From Clostridia bacterium (GTDB lineage: Bacteria; Bacillota; Clostridia; Acetivibrionales; DSM-27016): 64,000 nt of DNA. The notes below the pieces were generated by a model. It did not search any database and was not told where the DNA came from. It saw only the letters and a list, made by a program, of their open reading frames with translations. The stretch is from positions 27,297 to 91,296 of the forward strand of contig JAOAIJ010000047.1 in NCBI GenBank assembly GCA_026414765.1. The letters are read 5' to 3'. This document shows, piece by piece, positions 30,262-64,000 of this stretch (position 1 is the stretch's first letter; every line of letters begins with the position of its first letter). The position numbers and the translations under genes are program-made.

Positions 30262-30310
30262 CTATCCCCACAAGCCCCAAGTTTATAAACTTAAGGCTTT
30301 ATGGGGATAG
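30262..30310. terminator. long hairpin between convergent genes (LtaS-like gene / BGC operon end)
   Basis: CTATCCCCA...AAGCC..AAGTTTATAAACTT..GGCTT...TGGGGATAG. Nested stems surround a perfect 14-nt palindrome. T-runs are weak. Confidence 0.5.
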
Positions 30311-30338: not shown

Positions 30339-30581
30339 CTATACTTTTTCTTTAATATACGAAACCAAATCCCCTACAACCTTAAATCTGTTAAAATCCA
30401 GATCCTCGTCTTCAAGGTCAAGATCAAATTCCTTCTCCAATGCAATAATAGCTTTTATGAACTCAACAGAATTTATGCCCAGGTTAATCAGTTCATCTTC
30501 TATTTCGATTTCTTTGCCTGCCAGTTCACTCAACTGTTTATTCAATATTGCAATTATCCTGCTTTCTACTTCGTTAGACAT
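30339..30581 (-). CDS. free-standing acyl carrier protein
   Basis: 80 aa, acidic. ACP-type motif LINLGINSVEFIKAIIALE. GGAGGAAG RBS. Last gene of the operon. Confidence 0.8.
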   Translation of the reverse strand: MSNEVESRIIAILNKQLSELAGKEIEIEDELINLGINSVEFIKAIIALEKEFDLDLEDEDLDFNRFKVVGDLVSYIKEKV

Positions 30582-30609
30582 AAATTGCTTCCTCCTAATA
30601 TTTAACTTT

Positions 30610-33600
30610 TCATATACCCATCATAGCACATAATTTGTTATAGTACTCGTATTCAAGCTTAATTGCACGATCCAGCTTTTCAGTACATGTTAAGAATGTT
30701 TCCCTCTTATAACGCGATGTATATAAAAGTCTTGCGATCCTTGCCCTTATGAAACTCAGAAGATCTATGCACTCCAGAATAATTCCCTCGATTTCGGAGT
30801 AGTTTGTAACCAGTCTGGAATTTCTGTAGTTCATTGCCTGTTTTGCATTTATCAAGTTGTTAAGCAGTTCCAGCACCAGTGCAGCACTTTCTTTGATTGC
30901 TCCTTCATCCGCTGCAGCTGCTTCAAACTGCTTATAAAACTCTTCATAATACTTGAAACTGTTGAATACTTCATTTTTCACTTCAATAAAGTTGGCTTTG
31001 AAGCTGTGCAAATCATCCTCGTCTTCAATATCAGCCAAACCTTCAATTGAGCTGAATTCATAATAACTTGGGAACTCAGTTTTGTCATGAACCTTCATGG
31101 ATGCAAACTCGATTTCAGAAATATCGATGTTTCTGAAATTCTCCAGGAAGCCATTATATGCATTAACCAAATCCGAATAGCCTATAGTACGTTTTTCATA
31201 AACAAGGCTTCCTGAATGGCGATGCTCCAGTATATCAAAGGTTTTTTCCCTCTCATTAAACCCATAAATCAAAAGGCAATGAGGCCAGTGTGTTTTTTGG
31301 TATGTGTCCTTCCTTATGGATTCATAAAAACAGTCTACACAAACGATAACAAGCTTGTCTGCAGAAATCGCCCTGACTATATCCTGGGTCAGAGTGCTGG
31401 TGTACGGCTTTGATTCTACATGTATCCCAAGCCTTTCCGATACTTCAAAAATTGGGGTTTTCATTAAGTACCCTACATTTACTCCTTCTACCCCCATATA
31501 TTCCCTGTTTCCGTATATACCGATTTCATTTGCCATGTAGGAAAGCACAGATTTGTTAAAATGCCTCACTACCGGAAAAAGTGCACTATAAAAGCATCCC
31601 CTATAAATTATTTCATTAAATGGCTCGACACTATCCAATACCTTCAATTCATCTGAAGAACCGGTTTGTTTGACACTGCTTGCAGTCACCTTATCTTCTG
31701 ACGCCTTCTCTTCAAAGGCTTTAATGTTGTCATCATCACTGCTTTCTGTTTTCTGTACAATATCACTTGCATTTTCCCCTTTATCCAGGTATTCAGCCAA
31801 TTCATATATTGTAGGATGGCTGTTAATATCCGAATATTCTATTATCAGGTTGCTTTTCTCCATTTCAGTTTCCATTCGTACTGCAAGTAATGAATTTCCT
31901 CCCATAGCAAAGAAATCATCATTAATGTCTATTTCCTCCATCCCAAGGAGAGTACCCCAAATCTGCCCTATTATCCTTTCTGTACCGGTATAGTTGCCGT
32001 CTCCTCTTCCTTTAAGCTTTACGTCAGCAAGCTGTGTATTGGATTTTGCTATATTGTTATTCCCTGCTCTGTCTTTTAGTCTTTTTACCGCAGCTGATAT
32101 TTCCGTTGAGATTTTAAAAGGCAGCTCGGTTTCATTTTGGAAAACTTCATGCCCATAATCCGGTTCAGCTATAACTATTCTTCCTACATTCCTGCCAAGT
32201 ACTTCTTCAAAAGCACTTAATGCGTCAGCAGTTGAAATCGTCTTGAATATGTCATCCTTATCAGCCCCAAATTCAACAGCCATTCCGGTTTCCTTCCATG
32301 CAGGCCAATTGATTGTTATTGTCCTTTTTCCTTGCTTGTTCCTGTAGAAACTGAATGAATCCAGGTATGAATTTGCAGCTGTATAGTCCCCCTGCCCGGC
32401 CCCGCCCAATATGGATGCAATGGATGAGAATGATATAAAGAAATCCATCTCTTCACTCCGGGTCAGGTTGTCCAATATCCATGCTCCGTCCATCTTAGGA
32501 TTAATAACGCTTTTGAACGTATCTTCACTCCTATTTATAATAAAACCATTACCTGCTACTCCGGCAGCGTGTATGATGCCGCTTACCCTGCCATATTTCC
32601 CTCTCAGCTCATCTATCAGGACTTTCATAGCATCAAAGTTTGTTACATCAGCACTGCAGCATACAATACTTGCTCCGGAAGCCTCCATCGCCTTTATAGC
32701 TTCAATCTGCTTACAAACCTTCCTGTTTTCATTCTTTGAAAGTATACCGTCCCAGTCCTCCCTCTCCGGGAATTGTGAACGGCTAACAAGGCATAAGTTA
32801 ACTTTTCCTTTCGACGATAGATATTTACCGATTTCCAGACCTAATCCGCCCATACCTCCCGTTATCAGATAGATACCTTCAGCTTTTATTTCGCAGCTGA
32901 CCGCTGCTTTCTCTTCAATATCCATCCTCCGGAACATTTCTATATATCTCTTTCCATTCCTATAGGCAGCCATATACTTTTTACTATCAGATTTAATTTC
33001 ATTAAGAAGATCATCCGCACAAGTATTTTTATCTATGTCCAGACACCTTAAGCTCAATTTGTCATTTTCAGCACCGACAACCTTCCCAATGCCCATGAAA
33101 GCGGCATTATAAGGGTTTATAGCTTCTTCCTCCCCATTAACTTCACTTGCATAATCAGAAATCAATAGCATCTGCAAATTATTTTTAAGTTTTTTGCTTG
33201 ATACCGTCTTAGCTATATAGTACATGCTGAATAATCCATTTTTCTTTTTGCTTTGCAGACTCTCAAAAGTTTCCTTCTCAACAGTTCCGTAAATATTAAG
33301 CATATGTACGATTTTTGAGTATTCATGGATGTTTATGTCTTCGATTAACTTATTGTAGTCTTCTTGTATTCCTTGGATAACAAACCTGTTTTCACCGGTT
33401 TTCTGATACTTGTCTCCAAGTTCTACTTCCGTTACACTGGCACCTGAATCTTTCAATGATTTTACCAGCTCATCTGCAGTCTGAACTTTACTTTTTAATA
33501 CAAGTATTTTCAATCCAGAAATATCTTGCTCTCCGGCTTTCAGATCCTCCTGTACCCAACTCATTTCATAATAAGGACTGCCTTTTCCTGATAATTTTCT

Positions 33601-36471
33601 GAATGTACTGGCCGCTTCATTCACTCTTTTAACTGTATAATCTTCAACTTCTGCAAAAACCAAACCGTCTTCCGTCATCAGAGTGACATCGAAAGTCAAA
33701 CTTTCCGGATTTTCCTGTTTAGGAGACCGTCTCCTCAGATGGCTGTAGAGTTTTCCCGGAGTTGATCCATATGTTTTTAGAACTTTGTAGGTCAGAGGAA
33801 GATAGAGTCCTTCACCAATACTTGTATTAGCCATGTTAATGGCATTATCCATCAGGGAAGGATGCAGCCTGTACTCGTCCAGATCTTTAATAAATTCTGC
33901 CGGAAGCTCAAAGTAACCAAGTGTTTCATTATCACCGATATATGCTTTTCTTCCGCTATTCCACCTTGGTCCGAATCCAAAAGGCCCATTATCATCATTA
34001 CTGTCGCTGATAATTTCCGTGGAACATCTGGCTTTGATTTCGCTGATGTCTACTCTTTTTGCTCCTTCCTGTGTGCCTACCGAAACACTGCCTTCTGCGT
34101 GTTTAGCCCAGTTTCCATCCAAATCCTTGCTTGCGACAATAAAATCAAGATGTCCATCATAAGGCTTGACAATAGTCTGTACTTCCTTCTGCTCCCCTTC
34201 GTTTACTACCAGAGGTGTAATAAAAATAACATTTTTCAGCACTAAGTTTTTGTCCTGGTAGAATTCACTGCTCGCTTCTATAGCCATTTCCAGGTATGTA
34301 GTCCCCGGAACCACGTAATTACCTATTACTCTGTGGTCACTGAGAACCCAATGACGCTTGACCTCAAAATAAGTGGTGAAAATATGACTATCAAATGATT
34401 CCAAATGTTCATCGTACAGAGGATATTTACTTTTGGCATGATCTTTTTGTGTACCGAAAATCATATCACCAAATTCCCTGGGGTTAGCCCACAGCCTTAC
34501 TCGCTCAAAAGGGTATGCAGGCAGCGATACACGTTTGAGTTTTTTGCCTTTGTAAAGGTTATCCCAATCAATTTCAGCTCCCTCTACATAAAGCCTGCTT
34601 AATTCATACAGATCATTTTCAGTGTATGATTCACTTCCGGAAATCCTCTGAATGAGGTTTGATGCCGAAAGGGTTATTCTCCCCATTTGTTCTTCTGTGA
34701 TCCCGGCAGCATCAGATGATTTTTTACCACTTTGCGTAATTTTGTGCTGTCCGAAGAAAACACCGTTTTCATTTGATTTATTGAATCCGTGTTGAGCTAT
34801 GTGAGAAATTTTCTCTTTCAGTTCATCAAAGCTGCCGGCTACTATAGCAATCCTATAAGAAAAGTGTCCTCTCCCGGTATTTGCAGTGAAGCATACATTT
34901 TTCAAGTTGTTATTAGCATTTTTACTGAAGAAATCTGTATATTTTTTTACGTAATCTTCAAGTACATTTTCACTTCTAGCTGATATAGTGAATATTTGAG
35001 GTTTGCCGTCTATGACCGCCTCTGCACTTTTTTCAACTTCGGGGGCCTCTTCAAGAATAATGTGGCAGTTTGTTCCGCTGAAACCGAAGGAGCTCACTCC
35101 TGCTCTCCTCGGAACATCACTTTTTTTCCATTCCCTGGTACTGTCGTTTACAAATATAGGGCTGTTACAAAAATCTATATACGGGTTCGGTTCATCAAAG
35201 TTAATTACAGCAGGAATTTTCTCTTTCTTCATTGCAAGTACTACTTTCATTAAAGATGCCGGACCTGAAGCTGCTACCAAGTGGCCTATATTCGGTTTTG
35301 CCGATCCTATACCGCAAAATTGCTTTTTATCCGTAAACCTTGCTAGCGCATTGGAAAGTCCTTTTATTTCAATCGGATCTCCGAGTACAGTACCCGTAGC
35401 ATGGGCTTCCACGTATGAAATAGTTTCCGGGTTTACTTTAGCATTTTTCCAGGCCTGTATGATCACTTCTTCCTGTGCCTCAGCGTTTGGAGCCGTTATC
35501 CCGTTTGAAGTGCCGTCGTTGTTTATCGCACTTCCTTTTATTACAGCATGAATATTATCTCCATCTTCGACAGCTTTGGACAAAGGTTTAAGGAACAGTA
35601 CTCCGACACCCTCACCCCATACGGTACCGTTTGCATTTTTATCGAATGTCCTGACTTTTGAATCCTTTGATTCCACCATGGACATATTGGTGTTCTCCCC
35701 ATTAATATTGGGACGCGATGCTATCTGAATACCACCTGCAAGTGCATAATCACACTCCTTGTTTTTTAGCGCCTTGCATGCTTCATGTATCGCGGTAGCA
35801 CCTGATGAACAAGCTGTATCTATAACCATTCCCGGCCCTTTAAAATCAAATGCATACGAAATTCTGGTAGCAAGTATGCCTGCCCATGAACCTGTCAGAT
35901 GCATCTGATCCTGTTCAGTTATAATACTGTAGATTGAAGAGTTTGTATTATCTCTCCCTACATATACCCCGGTATTTGTACCTTGTACCTTTTTTCCGCC
36001 GTAGCCTGCATCTTCAATAGCTTCCCATGCAGCTTCCATAAAAACCCTCTGCATCGGATCAATAAACTTTGCTTCTCTCGGGGGGATGTGGAAAAATCCT
36101 GCATCAAATTTATCTACTTCATCAAGATATCCTGATTCTATAAATTTAATCCTTTTATTACTTATATCTTCATCCTTAATATCTGCATTGATCATGGTTT
36201 TTCTTATAACCGTATTGGACAGTACTGTATAAAAATCTTCTTTCCTTTTTTCCGGCAAATCTCTGATTGAAACAACCCCATTTATCAGGTTGTTCCAGAA
36301 TTCTTCAGGGTTATCGGCTTGTGGAAATCTGCAGGCCATACCAATAATCGCAATATCATCGTCTGCTCTTGAAGGCTTTGTTTTTAACTCCAGCAACATA
36401 CTTTTAGCTTCTTCCTGGGATAGTTTATTAGAAGCTACCTGCTTAATAATATAGTTTTTTGTTTTTTCCAT
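30610..36471 (-). CDS. trans-AT type I PKS, terminal module: KS-DH-KR-T plus a C-terminal BtrH_N/DUF4872-like Cys/His domain
   Basis: KS: DTACSSGATAIH, EAHATGT, PNIGH. DH: HWVLSDHRVIGNYVVPGT, HPSLMD. KR: GIYLITGGMGGLGLEIG, GDYTAAN. T: FFAMGGNSLLAV. No AT domain. 346 extra aa follow the T domain. Confidence 0.9.
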   Translation of the reverse strand: MEKTKNYIIKQVASNKLSQEEAKSMLLELKTKPSRADDDIAIIGMACRFPQADNPEEFWNNLINGVVSIRDLPEKRKEDFYTVLSNTVIRKTMINADIKDEDISNKRIKFIESGYLDEVDKFDAGFFHIPPREAKFIDPMQRVFMEAAWEAIEDAGYGGKKVQGTNTGVYVGRDNTNSSIYSIITEQDQMHLTGSWAGILATRISYAFDFKGPGMVIDTACSSGATAIHEACKALKNKECDYALAGGIQIASRPNINGENTNMSMVESKDSKVRTFDKNANGTVWGEGVGVLFLKPLSKAVEDGDNIHAVIKGSAINNDGTSNGITAPNAEAQEEVIIQAWKNAKVNPETISYVEAHATGTVLGDPIEIKGLSNALARFTDKKQFCGIGSAKPNIGHLVAASGPASLMKVVLAMKKEKIPAVINFDEPNPYIDFCNSPIFVNDSTREWKKSDVPRRAGVSSFGFSGTNCHIILEEAPEVEKSAEAVIDGKPQIFTISARSENVLEDYVKKYTDFFSKNANNNLKNVCFTANTGRGHFSYRIAIVAGSFDELKEKISHIAQHGFNKSNENGVFFGQHKITQSGKKSSDAAGITEEQMGRITLSASNLIQRISGSESYTENDLYELSRLYVEGAEIDWDNLYKGKKLKRVSLPAYPFERVRLWANPREFGDMIFGTQKDHAKSKYPLYDEHLESFDSHIFTTYFEVKRHWVLSDHRVIGNYVVPGTTYLEMAIEASSEFYQDKNLVLKNVIFITPLVVNEGEQKEVQTIVKPYDGHLDFIVASKDLDGNWAKHAEGSVSVGTQEGAKRVDISEIKARCSTEIISDSNDDNGPFGFGPRWNSGRKAYIGDNETLGYFELPAEFIKDLDEYRLHPSLMDNAINMANTSIGEGLYLPLTYKVLKTYGSTPGKLYSHLRRRSPKQENPESLTFDVTLMTEDGLVFAEVEDYTVKRVNEAASTFRKLSGKGSPYYEMSWVQEDLKAGEQDISGLKILVLKSKVQTADELVKSLKDSGASVTEVELGDKYQKTGENRFVIQGIQEDYNKLIEDINIHEYSKIVHMLNIYGTVEKETFESLQSKKKNGLFSMYYIAKTVSSKKLKNNLQMLLISDYASEVNGEEEAINPYNAAFMGIGKVVGAENDKLSLRCLDIDKNTCADDLLNEIKSDSKKYMAAYRNGKRYIEMFRRMDIEEKAAVSCEIKAEGIYLITGGMGGLGLEIGKYLSSKGKVNLCLVSRSQFPEREDWDGILSKNENRKVCKQIEAIKAMEASGASIVCCSADVTNFDAMKVLIDELRGKYGRVSGIIHAAGVAGNGFIINRSEDTFKSVINPKMDGAWILDNLTRSEEMDFFISFSSIASILGGAGQGDYTAANSYLDSFSFYRNKQGKRTITINWPAWKETGMAVEFGADKDDIFKTISTADALSAFEEVLGRNVGRIVIAEPDYGHEVFQNETELPFKISTEISAAVKRLKDRAGNNNIAKSNTQLADVKLKGRGDGNYTGTERIIGQIWGTLLGMEEIDINDDFFAMGGNSLLAVRMETEMEKSNLIIEYSDINSHPTIYELAEYLDKGENASDIVQKTESSDDDNIKAFEEKASEDKVTASSVKQTGSSDELKVLDSVEPFNEIIYRGCFYSALFPVVRHFNKSVLSYMANEIGIYGNREYMGVEGVNVGYLMKTPIFEVSERLGIHVESKPYTSTLTQDIVRAISADKLVIVCVDCFYESIRKDTYQKTHWPHCLLIYGFNEREKTFDILEHRHSGSLVYEKRTIGYSDLVNAYNGFLENFRNIDISEIEFASMKVHDKTEFPSYYEFSSIEGLADIEDEDDLHSFKANFIEVKNEVFNSFKYYEEFYKQFEAAAADEGAIKESAALVLELLNNLINAKQAMNYRNSRLVTNYSEIEGIILECIDLLSFIRARIARLLYTSRYKRETFLTCTEKLDRAIKLEYEYYNKLCAMMGI
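30613..31650 (-). other. C-terminal BtrH_N/DUF4872-like domain of the terminal PKS
   Basis: YRGCFYSAL (Cys codon 31594..31596), LVIVCVDCFYESIRKDTYQKTHWPHCLLIYGF, then a helical tail. Paralogous to ORF 46628..47818. No GxSxG, HHxxxDG or Rossmann motif. Confidence 0.55.
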
Positions 36472-36485
36472 TGTTATACATCCCC

Positions 36486-41294: not shown

Positions 41295-41306
41295 ACAATC
41301 CTGTTT

Positions 41307-46562: not shown

Positions 46563-46627
46563 GAAACAACCTCCATAAAAATAGTCACTAACCCTTTACT
46601 AAATAATCTTATGAGAATTCATATGTC

Positions 46628-47818: not shown

Positions 47819-47843
47819 TTTGCCCCTCCAGATAGTTCGTCGA

Positions 47844-49106: not shown

Positions 49107-49153
49107 GTGATTTCCTCCAATCATAACTCTTTGTTTTGTATATTTAATTAAGT

Positions 49154-52864: not shown

Positions 52865-52867
52865 ATT

Positions 52868-56314: not shown

Positions 56315-56357
56315 ATCTTCCTCCTAAGCTCAATATCTTTGTCATATCCGGCAAAAC

Positions 56358-59300
56358 CTATAATGTACCTCCCTCAAGCTCTTCATCATCAGCAGCCGCT
56401 GCACTTTCAGCAGCCCATCTGTAAGTCTCTATCAACTCGGCTATCCCTGCAATGGTAGTGGTTTCAAAAAGTTTTCTCATAGGTATCTGGACATCAAACC
56501 TCTTACCAAGTTCTGTAGCTACTGCCGCTGCAATCAAAGAGTGTCCACCCAGTTCAAAAAAGTCGTCATATACACCTATAGTGTCGTATCCCAAAACATC
56601 CTGCCACTTATCAGCTATTGCCTTTTCAACTTCATTCCTCGGTGCTGTATAAGAGGTTTCTAATTCAGGACGAGGTCTTTTCTTCAGTTTTTCATTACTG
56701 TTTAAACCATACACATCCGATTTGCTGTTATTTTTCAGACCTACCGAAGATACTTCGACCTTTGGCGAAATATTGCCGAATTCCTTGCTCAGTTCCTCCA
56801 GACGTTTCTTTAACTCTAATATCTCTTCAAGCTGTTTTTTACGCAGCTCATTATCTTTTAAGCCTTCATCATCATCATCAAGATTTACAGTCAAAGTGAT
56901 TTTCCCTTCTGTATATCCCGAATCGATCAATTCATCTGTTATTTCTTCCTTCTTTGAAATGAATACATCAGGCTGTTGGGCATCGACACTACGCTTTCCG
57001 GGTTCTATCCAGTAGCGTTGTCTTTCAAAAGGATATGTCGGCAATATAATACGGTGCCTCTTTTCATTTGAATAGAATTTATTCCAATCAACCCTTCCAC
57101 CTGCCAACCAGAACAAACCAACACATTTTAGTAGTGCTTCCGAATCCGACTTGCCTTCATTTTTAGCTTGCATGGATGAAAGTATGGCTTGGTCTGCATC
57201 CTTTTTTCTAAATTTCTCAACTTCATCACATATTCTCTTTCCGGGACCTATTTCGATAAGTATCTGATCCGAATCCTTCAGTACCTCCTGCAAGCCTTCA
57301 CTAAAGCGTAGTGCCCTGCGCTGGCGTATCCAGTAGTCCTTGCTTGCAGCATCCGAATCCGAAATCCAACTACCTGTAACACATGAGATAAACGGAATTT
57401 TAACTGTATTAAAATTGATAGTTGACATACTTTCCGGCAAGATTTCATCCCTGGAAGCAGCCATCTTCAATGCATCTTCCAGCGTCATGACCTCAGCTAT
57501 ACATGCCGCCACATATTCTCCTACACCTTCGCCAATCATATATTGAGGCTCTATCCCCCACTTAATCATCAGCTTAGCCAGTGAATACTCAATAGTAAAC
57601 ATCGCAGCCCTGCCAACACTGTACTCATCCATCTTTCTTGCAGCTTCTTCAATTGAAGTATCGGGATAAAGTAACTTACGTATGTCTATGTTTAATAAGC
57701 TTTCCAGTATCTTTCCGCATGAATCCACTGTCTTTCTGAAGAAGCTTTCCGTATTATACAGTTCTAAGCCCATATTCACATACTGGCCTTCTCCGGGAAA
57801 CATAAATACTACAGGCTGCTCCTTTGGTTTTTGGAAATGAGAAAAGACACGGTCAGCTGGCATTGATTCTAAACTTGCTGCCAAATCTGCATTGTCACGG
57901 CACAGCACTACCCTGCGGTGATTGAAATTCCTTCTGCCCACATGTAATGTGAATGCTGTGTCAGCCAGGTTTATATCAGGATTTTTTCTCATATATTCCG
58001 CAAGGTTACTTGTCATCTTTTCCAGTGCAGTACCAGTCTTTGCCGATAATGATATCAACTGCCATGGTCTGCTTGATTTCTTAGAAGGTTCCAGTTCCGG
58101 TGCTTCTTCCAATATTACATGCGTGTTTGTACCACCTATTCCAAAGGAGCTTACTCCTGCCCTTCTCGGGAATCCATTTGTCTCCCACTTTGAAAGTTTG
58201 GTATTTACATAAAAAGGACTGTTTACAAAATCAATCTTGTGGTTAGGTTCTTCAAAATTCAGGCTTGGCGGTATTACCTTGTGCTCCATTGCCAGAACGG
58301 CCTTAGCCAGACTTGCAAGCCCTCCCGCATTTACAAGATGCCCTATGTTCGTCTTAACAGAACCGATAGCACAGAACTGTTTCTTTTTTGTATGAGATCG
58401 GAAAGCTTTAGTTAATGCTGCTATTTCTATAGGATCGCCCAGATCCGTACCCGTCCCGTGACCGTCAATGTATGTAATTGTCTCAGGGTCAATTCCTGAA
58501 ACAGCTATAGCTTCTGCAATACACTCAGCCTGCCCATCCACATTTGGGGCTGTATAACTGTTTTTATTCGAGCCGTCATTATTTATTCCCGTTCCTTTTA
58601 TGACAGCGTGTATATAATCACCATCTGCTAAGGCATCCTCAAGTCTTTTCAATGCTACTATGACGAGACCGCTTCCGCTTACTGTCCCATTAGCTTTAGA
58701 GTCGTAAGCACGGCAGTGGCCATCTGAAGATCCGATTCCACCTTCCTGGTAGAAAAAGGCCTCGTTTCTTGAAACCTGAAAGCTGACACCACCTGCAAGG
58801 GCAAGGTCACAGCTGTAGTTTTGAAGGTTCTGGCATGCATAGTGCAATGCAACCAGTGAAGATGAACACAATGTATTAACATTTACGCTTGGCCCCATCA
58901 GATTCATCTTGTATGATACCTTTGTGGATAAGAAATCCTGTCCGTTTGCAAGCATGATTTTAAACGTTCCTACGCTTTCCACCAGGCCTGGGTTTGAATA
59001 AAGATTCCGTATCATATATCCGCTTAAGTTTGCACTTCCAAATACCGCTACTCTTCCATCATACAGTTCGGAGTTATATCCTGCGCGCTCAAGTACTTCC
59101 CATGCGCTTTCAAGAAATAGTCTGTGCTGGGGGTCCATGACTTCAGCTTCTCTTGCTGAGTAGTCAAAGAAAGATGCATCAAACTCATCCATCCCGTCGA
59201 GAATCGCATCTGCAGCTACAAACCTTGGGTTATCCAGCAAATGTTCATCTATACCCATCTTTAATAATTCATCACGATTGAAAAACTTTACAGATTCTAC

Positions 59301-59414
59301 CCCGTTGTAAAGGTTATGCCAGAATTCATCGACATTCTGTGCACCCGGGAAACGCCCGGTCATGCCTATTATAGCTACGTCACCCATAGAATTGCTTTCT
59401 TCATAATTACTCAT
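56358..59414 (-). CDS. type I PKS: KS, degenerate AT relic, T
   Basis: KS: NTLCSSSLVALH, DGHGTGT, TNIGH. AT-like FMFPGEGQY...MIGEGVGEY...IEIGPG. T: FFELGGHSLIAAA. The ATG overlaps the upstream stop by 8 nt. Confidence 0.9.
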   Translation of the reverse strand: MSNYEESNSMGDVAIIGMTGRFPGAQNVDEFWHNLYNGVESVKFFNRDELLKMGIDEHLLDNPRFVAADAILDGMDEFDASFFDYSAREAEVMDPQHRLFLESAWEVLERAGYNSELYDGRVAVFGSANLSGYMIRNLYSNPGLVESVGTFKIMLANGQDFLSTKVSYKMNLMGPSVNVNTLCSSSLVALHYACQNLQNYSCDLALAGGVSFQVSRNEAFFYQEGGIGSSDGHCRAYDSKANGTVSGSGLVIVALKRLEDALADGDYIHAVIKGTGINNDGSNKNSYTAPNVDGQAECIAEAIAVSGIDPETITYIDGHGTGTDLGDPIEIAALTKAFRSHTKKKQFCAIGSVKTNIGHLVNAGGLASLAKAVLAMEHKVIPPSLNFEEPNHKIDFVNSPFYVNTKLSKWETNGFPRRAGVSSFGIGGTNTHVILEEAPELEPSKKSSRPWQLISLSAKTGTALEKMTSNLAEYMRKNPDINLADTAFTLHVGRRNFNHRRVVLCRDNADLAASLESMPADRVFSHFQKPKEQPVVFMFPGEGQYVNMGLELYNTESFFRKTVDSCGKILESLLNIDIRKLLYPDTSIEEAARKMDEYSVGRAAMFTIEYSLAKLMIKWGIEPQYMIGEGVGEYVAACIAEVMTLEDALKMAASRDEILPESMSTINFNTVKIPFISCVTGSWISDSDAASKDYWIRQRRALRFSEGLQEVLKDSDQILIEIGPGKRICDEVEKFRKKDADQAILSSMQAKNEGKSDSEALLKCVGLFWLAGGRVDWNKFYSNEKRHRIILPTYPFERQRYWIEPGKRSVDAQQPDVFISKKEEITDELIDSGYTEGKITLTVNLDDDDEGLKDNELRKKQLEEILELKKRLEELSKEFGNISPKVEVSSVGLKNNSKSDVYGLNSNEKLKKRPRPELETSYTAPRNEVEKAIADKWQDVLGYDTIGVYDDFFELGGHSLIAAAVATELGKRFDVQIPMRKLFETTTIAGIAELIETYRWAAESAAAADDEELEGGTL
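57240..57812 (-). other. inactivated, internally deleted cis-AT domain relic
   Basis: GHSxG is replaced by GEGVG (codons 57519..57533, checked on the DNA). GQGSQ is replaced by GEGQY. About 95 aa separate the active-site loop from IEIGPG, against roughly 190 aa in intact ATs. No xAxH motif. Confidence 0.75.
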
Positions 59415-62400
59415 CGATTTCCACTCCTTTTCTTCGTTGCATTTGCTGCCTTCTTTGCTTCATGAACTCCAATTGTTTGTTTACCCTGCTGTTAACCTCA
59501 GTAAAAGCAGGCTGCTCCTCTGAAGTACTGCTGTTATTAATATATTTGGACAGTAATGATATGGTATTGTATTTATACAGATCGACAACAGCTATATCTG
59601 TTTCAAATGCTTCTTTTAGTTTTGAATGCAACTGTATCAACAACAACGAATCTCCGCCAAGTGCAAAGAATTCGTCATGTATACCTACTCTTTCCATACT
59701 CAGTGTATCTTCCCATATTCCGGCAAGTTTCTTTTCTATTTCATTTTTGGGCGGTACATATTCATTTTCCAATTCAGGTCTTGGATGTAACGTTCTGGAA
59801 GCTGCTGCCTCATCAAGAGACTCCTTCACATTTGGCTGATTCAAGTAATTGGCATCTTCAATAGCTGTCTTTATATCCTTAGTTGATACAATAACCTGAG
59901 GCCTGAAACAGCCATTAATAATTTTCTTAAAAGCTTCCTTACCCTCATAAGCTGCAATCCCCTCGTTCATCACTCCCGGTTTACCTTTAAATGAATCCTC
60001 GTACAGCTTTCCTATACTTACATATTCTGACTCATGAGAGCCACCTGACGTCTTGCTCCTGATATTCGCCGCAGCAGCTTCCCCTGTCAGCCTCATTGAA
60101 AAGTTTCTTATCTCTGCCAGTTGAGTACCATTACCACTGAGTATATCAATATCACACGTTATTACTTCCTGTAGGGAACCGTACCCGTTCTTAAACCTTA
60201 TATGCCCGTAAATCTTTTGTTCCAACACGCCTTTTATAATAAGCCTTTCATATGAGAACGGCAGGAAATTTCCTCCTCCGGCCAGCCTCAGTGCTCCGGT
60301 TGCCACATCCAGCAAAGCTGGGTGAAGCTTGTAGTTGTCCAAATCAGCATTAAAATCTTGTGACATTTCAACTTCAACCAGACCTTCATCAGACCCAAGT
60401 GAAAATCTTTTCAAAGATCTCCATCTTCCTCCGAAGCTGATAAATTCTTCTGAAAGTTTTTGTCCCTCGCCGGATGCAAATACTGTCCGGCTGTTGCATC
60501 TATCCTTAAGTTCCTGAATATTATATACAGTATTGTTCCTTTCATTTGAAGCCTTGATGTTCCCCTTCACATGTAAAAGCCAGTTTGCTGTTTCAGCCTC
60601 TTCTCCGTGCGGTTTTGAGACTATACGAAAATCAAACGAACCGCCGTTTTTATTCATTACCGTAAACACATCACGGCTTTCACCTGTTTTTACCGCCAGC
60701 GGATTAAGGAAAATCACTTCACTTATCTGGGCATTTACTTCTCCGGTGATATCTTCAAAGGCAGCTCTTGCCATTTCAAGATATGTTGTACCTGCAATCG
60801 TAGGTACACCGAGGACAAGATGCTCAGACAACACCCAATCTTTATCAGGAGAAAGTTCTCCCGCATATATAATCTTTTCTGGACTATCAGATATGCACTT
60901 CCCTAATATGGGGTGCAGTTCTTCTTCCTGCAAGTCTGATACCTGTCCCAATCCTTTAGCCATACCTACACCAGGCCATCTATCCCAGTCAATTGATATG
61001 AAACGCGTACCTCTGCGCGAGTCGTGTGCATGAGCGAAGGCATCAAGGAAGGCGTTTGCAGCACTGTAATCTATTTGCCCGAATCCGCCTGTAATTGCAT
61101 TGAGTGAAGAGCAGAGCATAAAGAAATCAAGTTTGCAATCTTCAAATGCTCTGTATATCTCTATAGTTCCCTGTACTTTTGGTGCAAGTACCTGTTCTGT
61201 ATTTTCTTTCTTTTTAAACTGGATCATTCCGCCGCCCGGATTACCAGCAGCGTGTATAATACCGTCAACTCTTCCGAATCTGCTTTCAACCTGCCCGCGC
61301 AGGTTTTCCAGTTCATTTTTATTAGTAACATCCGCCTGACAGACAAGTATCTCTGCACCCGCTGACTGATATTGCTTTAACTTTTTTATCTTCCGGGATA
61401 CTGCATTCTTCTTACCGTGACTCTCTATCCAATTATCCCAATCCGCCTGTTCAGGAAATTCTGACCTGCTGACAAGAATCAATTTTGCTTTCATCTCTTG
61501 AGCAAGGTACTCTGCAAGAACAAGCCCTATTCCACCCAAACCTCCTGTCATCAGATAAACCCCATTGTTTTTAAGTTTTACGGCAGAATTCTCTTTTTCA
61601 TCCAGCTTTATTCTTTCATAGGTTTCTGTCCAGCGCTGCAGCCCACGGTATGCAACCATATCCTCATCCGAATTTGAATAAACCTCCAAAGTCAGACACT
61701 CAAGCATATCCTGTTCATCTATGCTGTCCGGTTCAGGTAACATCAGGTCTATGCTGCTGCATTTTATATTGGGATATTCCCTCGGTATAACCCTGCACGG
61801 TCCGAGATGCAATGATTTTTCCGTATAAATAGTCTTTTCATTGACTATTTTATGTAAATTGTTAACTACCACCTTTACCCGTATCATAGAAGACCATCCC
61901 TGGCTTCCGATTGCCTGCGCCAGATAGAGCATGCTATAAAACAGCTTTTCTCCACAGCCTGAAGCTTCCCCGCTTTCCACAGCCGCGTCTCCCTCTGTTA
62001 TCCCGAACAGGTTTACGATTTTTGTAGGAGTTATACCCACTCCTGACATGTCTTTCAACATATTGTCATAGTGAGTATAGTTGCCGACATTAATAATGTA
62101 GTTTTTGTTATCCATCTTTCTGTATTCTTCTCCTGAAACAGCAACTATAACTTCACCCTTTTGATCCTTCAGACACTTTACAAACTTGTCGGTAAAGTAG
62201 TTTCTCTCCAACAGGACAAGTAAAACTTCGTTTCCATTTTCACTGCCGTAAGCCAAATCTTCGGTAGACTGCTTCCAAACAGGAGTATAAAACCACTCGG
62301 ACAACTCTGACCGTTTCATCGCCTTTAAATTAGGTTTTTCAGTTTCTGCAGGTACAGTTTTCTTTACCCAATAAGACTGCCCTTCAAAGGGATAGGAAGG

Positions 62401-64000
62401 AAGAGACACACGTTTTCTCTTCTGTCCTTCATATAACCTTGCCCAATCTAGCTTCGCACCGTTTAGCCAGAGGTTTCCCAATTCATCCAATGAATACTTT
62501 CCAATATCATCATGTATTGTCTGAGAATTTGAAGAAGCTTGCTCTTCTATACTGCTGAAAATCCTACCTGAATCTTCGCCACGTTTTTCCAGAGCATCGA
62601 TGGCATCTGCAATGGATGTACATATGAGAAATCTTCTACATTCAAATTCCTTTCTGCCTATTTGTAAAGTGTACGCAATGTCAGCCAAATCTGAATCCTT
62701 ATTTCTCTTAAGGAAGTCTGTAAACTGTACTGTCAAGCGTTCCAGGGCTTTGTCGTTCTTTGCTGAAAGTACAAGCAGGTATTGAGCATTACAACATGTA
62801 CTGCTCTCTACAGCCGGTGCTTCTTCAAGCACTGCATGAGCATTCGTCCCCCCTATGCCAAAGGAACTGATGCCTGCCCTTAAAGGACTGTTCTCACTCT
62901 TCCATTCATTAAGTGTGTTGTTAACAAAAAACGGAGTGTTTTTGAAGTCTATTTTAGGATTTGGACTTTTAAAGTTCAAACTTGGAGGTATCTTCTTATG
63001 GCGCAGTGCCAAAACGGTCTTTATCAATCCGGTGACACCTGAAGCGGCATCAAGATGCCCTACATTAGTCTTAACCGAACCAATAGCACAATACCCCTTC
63101 TTATCGGTCTTTCTGCTAAATACCTTAGTCAAAGCTTCAATTTCTATAGGGTCCCCAAGAGGAGTTCCCGTTCCGTGTGCCTCGATATAGGTAATTGTGT
63201 CCGGAGCTATACCTGACTTCGACTGAGCTTCTTCTATTGCCTTCGATTGCCCATCGATGCTAGGCGCAGTATAACCCATTTTCAATGCACCATCGTTATT
63301 TATAGCCGTACCTTTAATAACCGCACTGATGCTGTCTCCATCAGAAACTGCGTCTTCCAGTCTTTTCAGCACTACGACACCTGCACCGTTTCCACCGACA
63401 GTACCTTTTGCCTGTTCGTCAAAAGCCCTGCAGTGCCCGTCAGGTGAAAGAATCATGCCCTCCTGGTATAAATAGCCTGCCTTTTGAGGCATACGTATGC
63501 TTACACCTCCGGCAAGCGCCATATCGCATTCTCCGCTTATAAGGCTCTGGCAGGCAAGATGTACGGCAACAAGCGAGGAGGAACAAGCCGTCTGGACTGT
63601 CACACCAGGTCCCTCAAGGTTCATTTTGTATGCTACGCGTGTAGCTAAGAAATCCTTATCATTGCTTGTCATTATCTGGTAGTCGTTTGCTAAACCTTTA
63701 GAACGGTCATCCCACAGGTTTTTAGCATATGTATTCATACCCACACTAGCATATACACCTATCAAACCATTGTATTTTCCCGAATCATACCCTGCATCTT
63801 CAAGGGCTTTCCAGGACTCTTCCAGGAAAATTCTTTGCTGAGGATCGAGAACCTCAGCTTCTCTCGGATTGTATCCGAAGAAATGGGCATCAAATTTATC
63901 TATATCATCCAAAGCTCCCCATGCCTTTACATATCCCGGTTTCTTCAACACATCGGGAGCAACGCCTTCTTCCATCACCTGCTCATCTGTAAAGCGGGAT
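59407..64000 (-). CDS. trans-AT type I PKS, partial (5' end beyond the right edge): KS-KR-DH-T
   Basis: The frame stays open upstream of the track start (...SRFTDEQVMEEG...). KS: QTACSSSLVAVH, EAHGTGT, TNVGH. KR: GVYLMTGGLGGIGLVLA, IDYSAAN. DH: LHPILG, LSEHLVLGVPTIAGT, HPALLD. T: FFALGGDSLLL. Confidence 0.9.
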   Translation of the reverse strand, partial: SRFTDEQVMEEGVAPDVLKKPGYVKAWGALDDIDKFDAHFFGYNPREAEVLDPQQRIFLEESWKALEDAGYDSGKYNGLIGVYASVGMNTYAKNLWDDRSKGLANDYQIMTSNDKDFLATRVAYKMNLEGPGVTVQTACSSSLVAVHLACQSLISGECDMALAGGVSIRMPQKAGYLYQEGMILSPDGHCRAFDEQAKGTVGGNGAGVVVLKRLEDAVSDGDSISAVIKGTAINNDGALKMGYTAPSIDGQSKAIEEAQSKSGIAPDTITYIEAHGTGTPLGDPIEIEALTKVFSRKTDKKGYCAIGSVKTNVGHLDAASGVTGLIKTVLALRHKKIPPSLNFKSPNPKIDFKNTPFFVNNTLNEWKSENSPLRAGISSFGIGGTNAHAVLEEAPAVESSTCCNAQYLLVLSAKNDKALERLTVQFTDFLKRNKDSDLADIAYTLQIGRKEFECRRFLICTSIADAIDALEKRGEDSGRIFSSIEEQASSNSQTIHDDIGKYSLDELGNLWLNGAKLDWARLYEGQKRKRVSLPSYPFEGQSYWVKKTVPAETEKPNLKAMKRSELSEWFYTPVWKQSTEDLAYGSENGNEVLLVLLERNYFTDKFVKCLKDQKGEVIVAVSGEEYRKMDNKNYIINVGNYTHYDNMLKDMSGVGITPTKIVNLFGITEGDAAVESGEASGCGEKLFYSMLYLAQAIGSQGWSSMIRVKVVVNNLHKIVNEKTIYTEKSLHLGPCRVIPREYPNIKCSSIDLMLPEPDSIDEQDMLECLTLEVYSNSDEDMVAYRGLQRWTETYERIKLDEKENSAVKLKNNGVYLMTGGLGGIGLVLAEYLAQEMKAKLILVSRSEFPEQADWDNWIESHGKKNAVSRKIKKLKQYQSAGAEILVCQADVTNKNELENLRGQVESRFGRVDGIIHAAGNPGGGMIQFKKKENTEQVLAPKVQGTIEIYRAFEDCKLDFFMLCSSLNAITGGFGQIDYSAANAFLDAFAHAHDSRRGTRFISIDWDRWPGVGMAKGLGQVSDLQEEELHPILGKCISDSPEKIIYAGELSPDKDWVLSEHLVLGVPTIAGTTYLEMARAAFEDITGEVNAQISEVIFLNPLAVKTGESRDVFTVMNKNGGSFDFRIVSKPHGEEAETANWLLHVKGNIKASNERNNTVYNIQELKDRCNSRTVFASGEGQKLSEEFISFGGRWRSLKRFSLGSDEGLVEVEMSQDFNADLDNYKLHPALLDVATGALRLAGGGNFLPFSYERLIIKGVLEQKIYGHIRFKNGYGSLQEVITCDIDILSGNGTQLAEIRNFSMRLTGEAAAANIRSKTSGGSHESEYVSIGKLYEDSFKGKPGVMNEGIAAYEGKEAFKKIINGCFRPQVIVSTKDIKTAIEDANYLNQPNVKESLDEAAASRTLHPRPELENEYVPPKNEIEKKLAGIWEDTLSMERVGIHDEFFALGGDSLLLIQLHSKLKEAFETDIAVVDLYKYNTISLLSKYINNSSTSEEQPAFTEVNSRVNKQLEFMKQRRQQMQRRKGVEIDE
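60079..60921 (-). other. DH (double hot-dog) domain placed after the KR catalytic domain
   Basis: It lies between IDWDRWPGVGMA (KR end) and GIAAYEGKEAFKKIINGCFRPQVIVS, a tail that directly follows the KR in the other modules. The His codon of LHPILG was checked at 60913..60915. Confidence 0.7.

What the first reader, a model, noticed from the sequence alone, without database searches (positions are those of the whole stretch)
30339..64000. Open-ended hybrid trans-AT PKS/NRPS assembly line of at least 34 kb in one compact operon
Ten co-directional minus-strand genes have gaps of 0-65 nt or overlaps: an ATGAGTAA overlap at 59407-59414, TAG-AAT-ATG at 52864-52870, and TAA directly followed by ATG at 42578-42581. 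In transcription order they are: KS-KR-DH-T (5' end off-window); KS-AT relic-T; dock-C-A(Ser)-T; KS-KR-T; AT; dock-BtrH-like; dock-C-A(Gly)-T-half C; AT; KS-DH-KR-T; KS-DH-KR-T-BtrH-like; ACP. All five KS domains keep the Cys-His-His triad. No ER, MT, E, Cy, TE or R domain and no PPTase is visible. The flanks are housekeeping genes, and the downstream border is a strong hairpin at 30262-30310. I cannot match this architecture to a characterised pathway from memory.
Basis: partly seen in the sequence, partly recalled or inferred. Interest (0 to 1): 0.72.

Follow-up and report, generated by a model that had tools for sequence, protein, structure and literature searches.

The report
Orphan polyketide-peptide line with papain-like transacylases
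This is an intact, uncharacterised trans-AT polyketide/peptide assembly line from an uncultured anaerobic Clostridia genome that has no thioesterase and instead carries two papain-fold acyl-transfer units of the closthioamide CtaG / lincosamide CcbD type, so its chain is probably handed over or released in an unusual way.

Summary
Gaps are -8 to 65 nt, and the domain order is as described. All five KS domains keep Cys-His-His. The A-domain codes read Ser and Gly. The AT in gene 2 is a relic and the second C in gene 7 is only its C-terminal lobe. No TE, R, ER, MT or PPTase was found.

The DNA is a GenBank MAG ("Clostridia bacterium", proteins MCX8132079-087, contig 115,901 bp). No syntenic cluster exists among the GTDB species representatives. 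The best partial synteny is with uncharacterised metagenomic clusters at 52-70% identity. Homologues suggest gene 1 extends about 5-6 kb past the window and starts with A-T-C-A-T.

The distinctive part is the two "BtrH-like" units. Structure prediction and Foldseek place both in the CtaG/CcbD/AziU3 papain-fold class of carrier-protein-dependent transacylases. The triads are Cys83-His192-Asp210 in gene 6 and Cys1626-His1731-Glu1749 in gene 10. Gene 6 carries a TubC-type docking domain. Gene 10 fuses the domain after its last T, and a discrete ACP follows.

My best reading is that these units replace a thioesterase and transfer or release the chain by aminolysis. The acceptor is unknown. I rate this a new variant of a known kind, of moderate interest.

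The parts
59407..64000 (-). g1 (5' end off-window): KS-KR-DH-T; the window cuts the KS at about profile position 54
   Evidence: Pfam. KS triad. KR Tyr/Ser/Lys and the DH His motif (HLVLGVPTIA variant). Homologues L001 and L002 (63-65% identity) are A-T-C-A-T-KS-KR-DH-T ORFs of >=3241 and 3518 aa.
56358..59414 (-). g2: KS, inactive AT relic (GEGVG in place of GHSLG), T. Acidic C-terminal tail ...DDEELEGGTL
   Evidence: 70% identical to the gene after the g1 homologue in L001.
52868..56314 (-). g3: TubC_N docking domain, C (HHIISDA), A (Ser code DVWHFSLIDK), T
   Evidence: NCBI MCX8132087.1
49154..52864 (-). g4: KS-KR-T with acidic tail ...EEDSEEGFEEGEF
   Evidence: 60% identical to the first gene of L035.
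47844..49124 (-). g5: discrete FabD-like acyltransferase (GHSLG, Arg117 and His201 equivalents) plus a ~130-aa C-terminal extension. The annotated start is probably the ATG at 49106.
   Evidence: The exact 426-aa product is not in the protein collection, while its neighbours are.
46628..47818 (-). g6: TubC_N docking domain (aa 15-65) fused to a CtaG/CcbD-class papain-fold transacylase (aa 71-396). Triad Cys83-His192-Asp210.
   Evidence: Pfam. Family alignment A1 has near-invariant C13/H122/D140. AF2 model pLDDT 94.8. Foldseek hits AziU3/U2, CtaG and CcbD at E 5e-9 to 1e-5, TM 0.61-0.69. NCBI MCX8132084.1 'C39 family peptidase'.
42579..46562 (-). g7: TubC_N docking domain, C (HHLISDG), A (Gly code DILQMGMVWK), T, then only the C-terminal lobe of a condensation domain (about 42591-43136) with no HHxxxDG motif
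   Evidence: The L035 homologue (52%) has a longer second C stretch that also matches the N-terminal half of the g3 and g7 C domains.
41307..42578 (-). g8: second discrete FabD-like acyltransferase, 62% identical to g5
   Evidence: NCBI MCX8132082.1 'ACP S-malonyltransferase'
36486..41294 (-). g9: KS-DH-KR-T
30610..36471 (-). g10: KS-DH-KR-T followed by a terminal CtaG/CcbD-class domain (aa ~1600-1953, nt 30613-31764 analysed). Triad Cys1626-His1731-Glu1749.
   Evidence: Pfam sub-threshold BtrH_N at 24-26 bits. hhalign against the g6 family gives 92.6% probability, with the Cys and His aligned. Alignment A3. AF2 model pLDDT 74.3. Best Foldseek match is CtaG, E 3e-7, TM 0.69 normalised to the target.
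30339..30581 (-). g11: discrete 80-aa ACP (LGINSV motif, unlike the GG[HDN]S motif of the module T domains)
   Evidence: NCBI MCX8132079.1
30262..30310 (.). Long imperfect hairpin between the convergent g11 and the LTA-synthase-family gene (28541-30247); no U-tract

Best explanation
This is an intact, orphan trans-AT PKS/NRPS biosynthetic operon from an uncultured anaerobic Clostridia MAG. Two discrete FabD-like ATs (g5, g8) should load malonyl units onto AT-less PKS modules.

If the genes act in their order, the part in the window adds seven units to an upstream acyl or peptidyl starter. These are an enoyl C2 unit (g1), a beta-keto C2 unit (g2), Ser (g3), a beta-hydroxy C2 unit (g4), Gly (g7) and two enoyl C2 units (g9, g10). 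The starter is probably made by an off-window A-T-C-A-T part of g1.

The line has no thioesterase or reductase. Instead it holds two papain-fold Cys-His-Asp/Glu transacylases of the CtaG/CcbD/BtrH class. Known members take an acyl group from a carrier-protein thioester onto their Cys and pass it to an amine (ping-pong). I infer that the domain fused after the last T of g10 off-loads the finished chain by aminolysis. The acceptor would be either a free amine or an amine tethered to the adjacent discrete ACP g11.

I also infer that g6 is recruited by its TubC-type docking domain to an acidic C-terminal tail, most likely that of g4. There it would act on the intermediate bound to that T domain, by branching, an alternative off-loading route or acyl transfer.

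Shown here: the gene and domain anatomy, the catalytic residues, the folds and the rarity. Inferred: collinearity, the docking partner, the release role and the nucleophile.
For: - Domain anatomy and intact catalytic motifs.
- No TE or R domain in the cluster.
- g6 model: pLDDT 94.8. Its full-length structural matches are only AziU3/U2, CtaG and CcbD, including CcbD in complex with a PCP. C39 peptidase domains match only in part, TM about 0.3.
- g10 terminal domain: best match is CtaG. hhalign against the g6 family gives 92.6%, with Cys and His aligned. Its Cys-His-Glu triad is the one described for CcbD/LmbD (PMC12945683). The g6 Cys-His-Asp triad and its spacing (C13/H122/D140 of the domain) mirror CtaG C11/H128/D144 (PMC12865890 and PMC7183216).
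- The same family sits directly after the last T of other TE-less megasynthases. Examples are L035 dock-C-A-T-BtrH and L039, where the 3709-aa last protein of a PKS/NRPS carries it near its C-terminus, followed by about 220 further residues, and the next gene is unrelated. P0160, P0210, P0223 and P0233 are further examples.
- The closest relative of g6, P0122 (42%), lies about 6 kb from a BtrH_N + two carrier proteins + adenylating enzyme set.
- The g6 and g7 docks share the core K(V/I)KLWVDxxxLRYKAPKG, and g2 and g4 end in acidic EEGx[LF] tails.
Against: - No acceptor-forming genes (amine biosynthesis, or an adenylating enzyme for g11) are visible in the window.
- L035 and L039 have no ACP after the T-BtrH-like terminus, so the g11 link is weak.
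- g7 has its own intact C domain, so g6 is not needed for the g4-to-g7 hand-over.
- The g10 domain scores below Pfam's BtrH_N threshold, and its model has only medium confidence (pLDDT 74, three disordered stretches).
- AziU3/U2, which has the same fold, is not a transacylase, so fold alone does not fix the chemistry.
- The 5' end of the line and any further genes are unseen. Expression is unknown.
Confidence: 0.55

Rival explanations
1. The papain-fold units are hydrolases rather than amide-forming transacylases. The g10 terminal domain would release the chain as a free acid, standing in for a thioesterase. The docked g6 would be an editing enzyme that clears stalled or mis-primed T domains, the job done by acyl hydrolases or type II TEs in other trans-AT systems.
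For: The fold derives from cysteine proteases, and an acyl-Cys intermediate can be resolved by water. Both discrete ATs look like true FabD-type transferases (62% identical), so no dedicated proofreading acyl hydrolase is evident. No amine-supplying genes are visible in the window.
Against: Apart from AziU3/U2, which forms an aziridine rather than hydrolysing, the characterised full-length structural relatives or class members all form amides. These are CtaG, CcbD/LmbD, BtrH and AsbE. The helical C-terminal domain that builds the acceptor/carrier tunnel is kept in both units.
Confidence: 0.2
2. The cluster corresponds to an already characterised pathway that I could not recognise without MIBiG/antiSMASH.
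For: Trans-AT PKS/NRPS clusters are common in cellulolytic Clostridia (PMC3250452). The module logic, with amino acids between enoyl units, recalls bacillaene-type lines (own knowledge). MIBiG could not be searched.
Against: g6 and the g10 terminal domain have essentially no close relatives among 5.8 billion clustered proteins. The search found only g6 itself, and for g10 a single 45% fragment. The best genome-level relatives are unnamed MAGs at 42-70% with only partial synteny. No paper in the library links BtrH-type domains to trans-AT PKSs.
Confidence: 0.07
3. The locus is a decaying or silent relic. The AT relic, the half condensation domain and the odd terminal domain would be debris of recombination, and no product is made.
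For: g2 carries a dead AT fragment and g7 only the C-terminal lobe of a C domain. No PPTase lies in the window. Clostridial PKS clusters are often silent in culture (PMC3250452).
Against: All 11 ORFs are open over 33.6 kb. Start/stop junctions are tight or overlapping. Every catalytic motif tested is intact. AT remnants flanking the KS are normal in trans-AT modules (own knowledge).
Confidence: 0.1
4. g6 is what GenBank calls it, a C39 family peptidase that processes a ribosomal peptide and has nothing to do with the assembly line.
For: Peptidase_C39_2 scores 27.0 bits against a 24-bit cut-off. The NCBI name is 'C39 family peptidase'.
Against: It carries an NRPS/PKS docking domain (TubC_N, 58.7 bits). 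It lies inside the operon, with gaps of 25 and 65 nt. The window holds no ABC transporter; precursor-peptide genes were not searched for. C39 domains cover only the N-terminal lobe (TM about 0.3), whereas CtaG and CcbD cover the whole protein.
Confidence: 0.03

Closest known systems
CtaG, papain-like ligase of closthioamide biosynthesis (Ruminiclostridium cellulolyticum; PDB 9quz/9qvj; PMC12865890, PMC7183216)
   Same: The two-part fold (papain-like N-domain plus helical C-domain) is the best or near-best structural match for both g6 and the g10 terminal domain. The Cys-His-Asp triad sits at almost the same positions. The host lineage is also an anaerobic Clostridia. A discrete carrier protein lies next to the g10 domain, echoing CtaG's use of two carriers.
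   Different: Sequence identity is only 13-15%. CtaG is a free-standing enzyme in a non-modular pathway. Here one copy carries a TubC-type docking domain and the other is fused to the last module of a trans-AT PKS. Donors here would be polyketide-peptide chains. The acceptor is unknown.
CcbD/LmbD, lincosamide condensation enzymes (PDB 7yn1, 7yn2, 9dkr; PMC12945683)
   Same: Same fold (E 1e-6 for g6, 3e-4 for g10C). The carrier-protein-dependent ping-pong mechanism uses a Cys-His-Glu triad, the triad found in g10 (C1626/H1731/E1749).
   Different: CcbD is free-standing and transfers prolyl units to an amino-sugar. No sugar genes lie in this window, though glycosyltransferases flank the related T-BtrH-like terminus in L035.
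BtrH (butirosin) and AsbE (petrobactin) ACP-dependent acyltransferases
   Same: g6 scores above threshold for the Pfam BtrH_N family. These enzymes take an ACP-bound acyl donor and pass it to a free amine acceptor (PMC12865890), which is a model for off-loading.
   Different: They are discrete enzymes of non-PKS pathways. g10 scores below the Pfam threshold. I made no direct sequence comparison with BtrH or AsbE here.
Uncharacterised metagenomic clusters L035 (ENA LEMO22-1 scaffold_78) and L039 (GCA_026416815.1)
   Same: Both are PKS/NRPS lines of anaerobe type. Their last module carries a T followed by a BtrH-like domain, and no TE is called nearby. L035 shares KS-KR-T / AT / dock-C-A-T-C with g4/g5/g7 at 60/65/52% identity, in the same order.
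   Different: Neither has a docked stand-alone g6 equivalent or an ACP after the terminus. In L035 the terminal module is NRPS (C-A-T), not PKS. Neither has a known product.
Bacillaene-type trans-AT PKS/NRPS hybrids (Bacillus pks/bae)
   Same: AT-less KS modules served by discrete ATs, NRPS modules inserted between enoyl-forming PKS modules, and a Firmicutes host. Bacillus PKS proteins are among the KS-level hits to g1 (about 57% over 31% of the query for the best-aligned hits of this kind).
   Different: The similarity is at KS level only, with no synteny. Bacillaene lines end in a TE and contain beta-branching cassettes (own knowledge). Neither is present here.
AdmF, transglutaminase-like condensing enzyme of andrimid biosynthesis
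   Same: It is a CA-clan Cys enzyme that forms an amide between two carrier-bound substrates within a hybrid NRPS/PKS pathway (cited in PMC7183216).
   Different: It belongs to a different family within the clan. It did not appear in my fold or sequence searches. It is not docked or fused.

Membership tests
trans-AT modular PKS | KS-containing modules lack a functional in-module AT | tested here: met
   g1, g4, g9 and g10 have no Acyl_transf_1 hit. g2 has only profile positions 1-118 of 319, with GEGVG in place of GHSLG.
trans-AT modular PKS | Discrete AT gene(s) in the cluster with an intact catalytic Ser, His and Arg | tested here: met
   g5 and g8 align to E. coli FabD with GHSLG, the Arg117 equivalent and xFHS.
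trans-AT modular PKS | Elongating KS domains with the Cys-His-His triad | tested here: met
   All five KS domains.
NRPS module (C-A-T) | HHxxxDG-type C motif, an A-domain specificity code and the T-domain Ser | tested here: met
   g3 has HHIISDA, DVWHFSLIDK and GGHSL. g7 has HHLISDG, DILQMGMVWK and GGNSL.
TubC-type beta-hairpin docking domain (PF18563) | N-terminal domain scoring above Pfam's gathering threshold | tested here: met
   g3 72.5 bits, g6 58.7 bits, g7 57.6 bits, against a 26-bit cut-off.
TubC-type beta-hairpin docking domain (PF18563) | A matching short acidic C-terminal motif on the upstream partner | tested here: inconclusive
   g2 (...DDEELEGGTL) and g4 (...EEGFEEGEF) have such tails. 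That gives two tails for three docks in the window. Pairing is inferred, not tested.
CtaG/CcbD/BtrH class of papain-fold, carrier-protein-dependent transacylases | Two-part fold: papain-like N-domain plus helical C-domain | tested here: met
   g6: TM 0.61-0.69 to AziU3/U2, CtaG and CcbD over the whole length. g10C: TM 0.66-0.69 (normalised to the target) to CtaG, from a medium-confidence model.
CtaG/CcbD/BtrH class of papain-fold, carrier-protein-dependent transacylases | Cys-His-Asp/Glu catalytic triad | tested here: met
   g6 has C83/H192/D210, at near-invariant family columns. g10 has C1626/H1731/E1749. These come from alignment; I did not inspect the geometry in the models.
CtaG/CcbD/BtrH class of papain-fold, carrier-protein-dependent transacylases | Acyl donor presented on a carrier protein; product is an amide | not testable with these tools
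   Only context supports it: fusion directly after a T domain, a docking domain, and an adjacent ACP.
Pfam BtrH_N (PF14399) | Score at or above the gathering threshold of 29.7 bits | tested here: met
   g6 scores 36.9 bits. The g10 terminal domain scores only 24.1-26.4 bits and does NOT meet the threshold.
C39 bacteriocin-processing peptidase | Peptidase domain linked to an ABC exporter and double-glycine precursor peptides | tested here: not met
   No ABC transporter in the 64-kb window; precursor-peptide genes were not searched for. PCAT1 and C39 domains align only in part, TM about 0.3.
Canonical PKS/NRPS chain release (type I TE, terminal reductase, or terminal C domain) | TE, NAD-binding R, or a complete terminal C domain at the end of the line | tested here: not met
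   No Thioesterase, Abhydrolase or NAD_binding_4 hit in any of the 11 proteins. The only extra C domain, in g7, lacks its catalytic lobe.
Characterised BGC (MIBiG entry) | Syntenic, high-identity match to a cluster with a known product | not testable with these tools
   MIBiG and antiSMASH were not available. The indirect searches were negative.

The most novel reading that the evidence does not exclude
A modular trans-AT PKS/NRPS has recruited CtaG-type 'distal' transacylases as true assembly-line parts. One plugs into the line through an NRPS docking domain and modifies or diverts a T-bound intermediate in trans. The other is fused as a terminal off-loading domain and transfers the full chain onto an amine carried by the neighbouring discrete ACP, or onto a free amine. 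This would be a thioesterase-free, carrier-to-carrier release logic not yet described for modular synthases. It recurs, uncharacterised, in other anaerobe megasynthases.
Probability: 0.3. Interest if true: 0.75.

Novelty: new variant of a known kind. Interest (0 to 1): 0.55.

Why it matters
Papain-fold, carrier-protein-dependent ligases (CtaG, CcbD) were defined structurally only in 2023-2026, and so far only as free-standing enzymes of non-modular pathways. This locus, with L035, L039 and several database megasynthases, shows the same fold fused after terminal T domains of TE-less PKS/NRPS lines. In one case the fold is equipped with an NRPS docking domain.

If these units are the off-loading or branching catalysts, they add a new release and ligation module to the PKS/NRPS toolbox. 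That module would be useful for engineering amide-terminated or conjugated products. The locus also points to an unexplored product family in uncultured anaerobic Clostridia. If they are only hydrolases, the locus is just one more orphan trans-AT cluster.

Tried and rejected
**Extending the locus past 64000 failed.**
- The exact g2 and g6 products are not indexed in the contig collection.
- The full-length g1 protein was not returned by the homologue search.
- An exact 50-mer from the window end is absent from the JGI metagenomes.
- The genome is not among the GTDB species representatives.

**Comparative context for the g6 family was limited.**
- None of the 32 genome loci fetched with g1 contains a BtrH-like gene, so they gave no comparative context for it.

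**Other searches that found nothing useful.**
- PDB searches by sequence gave nothing meaningful for either BtrH-like unit, so fold comparison was needed.
- Literature searches for BtrH + trans-AT, DUF4872 and 'BtrH-like' found no description of such domains in PKSs.
- The supplement of the CtaG paper is not held.
- I checked celluxanthene biosynthesis (cex) as a possible identity and rejected it. It uses an iterative PKS with KASIII enzymes.
- The intrinsic-terminator scan found none at the border.
- Rfam and tRNA scans of the window were empty.

**Not attempted.** I did not try a transATor-style KS clade assignment, because no reference set was available. The KR stereochemistry motifs were ambiguous.


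Full report
**1. Observation**

The ORF table shows eleven minus-strand ORFs running from 30339 to the window end. Intergenic distances are -8, 43, 3, 29, 25, 65, 0, 12, 14 and 28 nt.

Pfam gives the following order:

| Gene | Domains |
|---|---|
| g1 | KS-KR-DH-T (KS cut by the window edge) |
| g2 | KS - AT fragment - T |
| g3 | TubC_N dock - C - A - T |
| g4 | KS-KR-T |
| g5 | AT |
| g6 | TubC_N dock - BtrH_N/Peptidase_C39_2 |
| g7 | TubC_N dock - C - A - T - partial C |
| g8 | AT |
| g9 | KS-DH-KR-T |
| g10 | KS-DH-KR-T - weak BtrH_N |
| g11 | 80-aa PP-binding protein |

Eleven is correct.

**2. Catalytic detail**

- **KS.** All five KS domains keep the active-site Cys, the HGTGT-type His (HATGT in g10) and the NxGH His.
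- **A domains.** Aligned to GrsA-PheA, the specificity codes are DVWHFSLIDK for g3 and DILQMGMVWK for g7. These are the textbook Ser and Gly codes.
- **C domains.** Both have HHxxxD(G/A).
- **Relics.** The g2 'AT' covers only profile positions 1-118 of 319 and reads GEGVG where the nucleophile motif GHSLG should be. The g7 tail matches only positions 217-435 of 456 of the condensation profile, which is the C-terminal lobe without the His motif. The L035 homologue of g7 has a longer second C stretch that also matches the N-terminal half of the g3 and g7 C domains, so g7's is probably a truncated derivative.
- **Discrete ATs.** g5 and g8 are 62% identical paralogues of FabD type. They keep the Ser, Arg and His residues and carry a ~130-aa extension.
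- **KR and DH.** The KR catalytic residues are present in all four KRs. g9 and g10 have canonical DH His motifs and g1 has a variant.
- **What is absent.** No TE, R, ER, MT, E, Cy or PPTase was detected.

**3. Surroundings and origin**

The 30 kb downstream of the cluster encode housekeeping functions of an anaerobic Firmicute. These include two LTA-synthase-family proteins, PtsI, pyruvate formate-lyase and its activase, AsnA, AsnS, citrate synthase and a chemoreceptor. G+C is slightly higher in the cluster (0.40-0.435) than in the flank (0.36-0.39 for most bins).

Exact look-ups identify the products as GenBank proteins MCX8132079 (g11), 080 (g10), 082 (g8), 083 (g7), 084 (g6), 086 (g4) and 087 (g3). 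They come from a 'MAG: Clostridia bacterium' on a 115,901-bp contig, and each is a singleton cluster.

The border hairpin at 30262-30310 is strong (dG -40.5 kcal/mol for the 101-nt stretch that holds it, z = -5.9). It lacks a U-tract and lies between convergent genes.

**4. The unseen 5' end**

I could not retrieve the contig beyond 64000. Two MAG loci are collinear with g1-g2.

- **L001.** A single ORF of at least 3241 aa has a C-terminal 1535 aa that is 63% identical to g1. A g2 homologue at 70% follows it.
- **L002.** It has a 3518-aa ORF, followed by a g2 homologue at 59%.
- **Both.** The extra N-terminal part is A-T-C-A-T.

By homology only, g1 probably extends about 5-6 kb past the window and begins with a loading module.

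**5. Relatives of the cluster**

None of the 32 genome loci found with g1 contains a BtrH-like gene. The best partial synteny is L035, an ENA metagenome scaffold. It carries KS-KR-T (60% to g4), AT (65% to g5) and dock-C-A-T-C (52% to g7) in the same order. After that come a glycosyltransferase and a dock-C-A-T-BtrH-like terminal protein. No product is known for any of these loci. Trans-AT PKS/NRPS clusters are known to be frequent and cryptic in cellulolytic Clostridia (PMC3250452), so the general kind is not new.

**6. The BtrH-like units**

*Rarity.* Word-based searches of 5.8 billion clustered proteins returned only g6 itself, and for the g10 domain a single 45% fragment.

*Family size and forms.* An exhaustive HMMER search of 1.84 billion representatives with the g6 catalytic domain found 744 relatives at E<=1e-3, but only 18 at E<=1e-30. 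The nearest, P0122, is 42% identical. The family occurs in three forms:
- proteins of about 320 aa;
- proteins of about 530 aa;
- domains placed directly after a T domain at or near the C-terminus of NRPS or PKS proteins, for example dock-C-A-T-X, A-T-KS-AT-T-X and KR-T-X.

Among the 150 best representatives, no other small protein carries a docking domain.

*Triad.* A 49-sequence alignment has near-invariant Cys13, His122 and Asp140 of the domain. These are g6 C83, H192 and D210.

*Fold.* The AF2 model of g6 is confident (pLDDT 94.8, pTM 0.92). Its only full-length PDB matches are AziU3/U2, CtaG and CcbD (E 5e-9 to 1e-5, TM 0.61-0.69). C39 peptidase domains cover only part of it. The g10 domain aligns to the g6 family profile (hhalign 92.6%) with the Cys and His in register and Glu1749 at the Asp position. 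Its medium-confidence model (pLDDT 74.3) is closest to CtaG (E 3e-7).

**7. What that class does**

- **CtaG** is a papain-like ligase. It takes p-hydroxybenzoate from one PCP onto Cys11 and transfers it to the distal amine of a tri-beta-alanine chain on a second PCP. The mechanism is ping-pong with the triad C11/H128/D144 (PMC7183216, PMC12865890).
- **CcbD/LmbD** use a Cys-His-Glu triad to move a carrier-bound prolyl unit onto an amino-sugar amine (PMC12945683).
- **AziU3/U2** shares the fold but forms an aziridine, so fold alone does not prove transacylation.

**8. Mechanistic reading**

*Shown.* This is an intact trans-AT PKS/NRPS with no TE or R domain. It has two class-typical Cys-His-Asp/Glu units. 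One carries a dock, and the other is fused after the last T and followed by a discrete ACP. The ACP's LGINS motif differs from the GG[HDN]S motif of all the module T domains.

*Inferred.*
- **(a) Collinear assembly.** The line would build [starter]-enoyl-C2, beta-keto-C2, Ser, beta-hydroxy-C2, Gly, enoyl-C2, enoyl-C2.
- **(b) The g10 terminal domain is the off-loading catalyst.** The same arrangement ends the TE-less lines in L035 and L039. Release would most likely be by aminolysis.
- **(c) g6 docks on an acidic EEGx[LF] tail.** Only g2 and g4 have such tails, and three docks compete for them. The g6 dock closely resembles that of g7, and g6 lies between g4/g5 and g7. So g4-T is the likeliest site of action.

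The nucleophile is unknown in both cases. g11 may be an acceptor or a donor carrier, as in the CtaG two-carrier scheme. However, L035 and L039 have no such ACP, which weakens that link.

**9. Rivals**

- A hydrolytic role (TE or editing surrogate) cannot be excluded. I give it 0.2.
- A known pathway is unlikely given the singleton status of the distinctive proteins, but MIBiG was not searchable (0.07).
- A decayed cluster is unlikely given 33.6 kb of open frames and intact motifs (0.1).
- The GenBank name 'C39 family peptidase' for g6 is very probably a misnomer (0.03).

**10. Verdict**

The cluster as a whole is a new member of a well-known kind. The integration of CtaG/CcbD-class transacylases into a modular line, docked in trans and fused as a terminal domain, is not described in the literature I could search. 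That makes it a new variant. Interest is moderate (0.55). It would be clearly higher if the terminal domain is shown to release the chain by carrier-dependent amide formation.

Noticed in passing
window 30339-30581 versus the T domains of g1-g10: All ten in-module carrier domains, including those of the PKS modules, have a PCP-like GG[HDN]S(L/I) motif. The discrete g11 has an ACP-like LGINSV motif. This suggests g11 is served by different partners.
   Followed up: partly
window 47844-49124: The exact 426-aa translation of g5 from the first ATG is not in the protein collection, although all its neighbours are. The annotated start is probably the ATG 18 nt downstream (MKKIALLFPG, as in g8), which widens the g4-g5 gap to 47 nt.
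   Followed up: partly
window 22744-23496 (-): A FatA-type acyl-ACP thioesterase (PF01643/PF20791) lies about 7 kb downstream of the cluster, separated from it by PtsI, a repressor and other genes. It is probably fatty-acid housekeeping, but it is the only thioesterase-like gene in the window.
   Followed up: no
window 25362-26033 (-): A LexA-like repressor (HTH_3 plus a Peptidase_S24 domain, 223 aa) of unknown regulon sits between the housekeeping genes and the cluster flank.
   Followed up: no
window 10707-12512 (+) and 28541-30247 (+): There are two LTA-synthase/sulfatase-family paralogues, both far below the LtaS equivalog cut-off. The second converges on the end of the PKS operon.
   Followed up: no
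window 1-64000: Not one Rfam family at gathering threshold and no tRNA gene in 64 kb. That includes the regions upstream of asnS/asnA, where a T-box might be expected in Firmicutes.
   Followed up: no
L033 744-3861 (and the same genes in L034): About 6 kb from the closest g6 relative, P0122, lies a compact set: BtrH_N protein (353 aa), carrier protein (78 aa), adenylating enzyme (501 aa) and carrier protein (89 aa). It looks like a closthioamide-style non-modular thiotemplated system in a spore-former. An IS element lies between the set and P0122.
   Followed up: no
L036 10001-19179: A cis-AT A-T-KS-AT-T-BtrH-like protein (P0160) is followed directly by DHQS-II, DeoC-type aldolase and HAD genes, and preceded by an NRPS and a B12-radical SAM enzyme. 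The downstream genes could make an amino-cyclitol or aminoshikimate-type acceptor for the terminal transacylase.
   Followed up: no
L035 8908-17360: Two glycosyltransferases and an unannotated 331-aa protein flank the dock-C-A-T-BtrH-like terminal protein. This hints at a sugar-amine acceptor, as in the butirosin and lincosamide systems.
   Followed up: no
alignment A2, columns ~380-570 (P0123-P0128): The ~530-aa form of the family carries a conserved ~200-aa C-terminal domain (motifs NNxGFG, DNISC, LGCxExGN, HxFAISL). It had no Pfam hit in the one member scanned, P0123.
   Followed up: no
window 30001-64000 versus 1-30000: G+C is modestly higher in the cluster (0.40-0.435) than in most flank bins (0.36-0.39). 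This is compatible with horizontal acquisition but not strong evidence for it.
   Followed up: no
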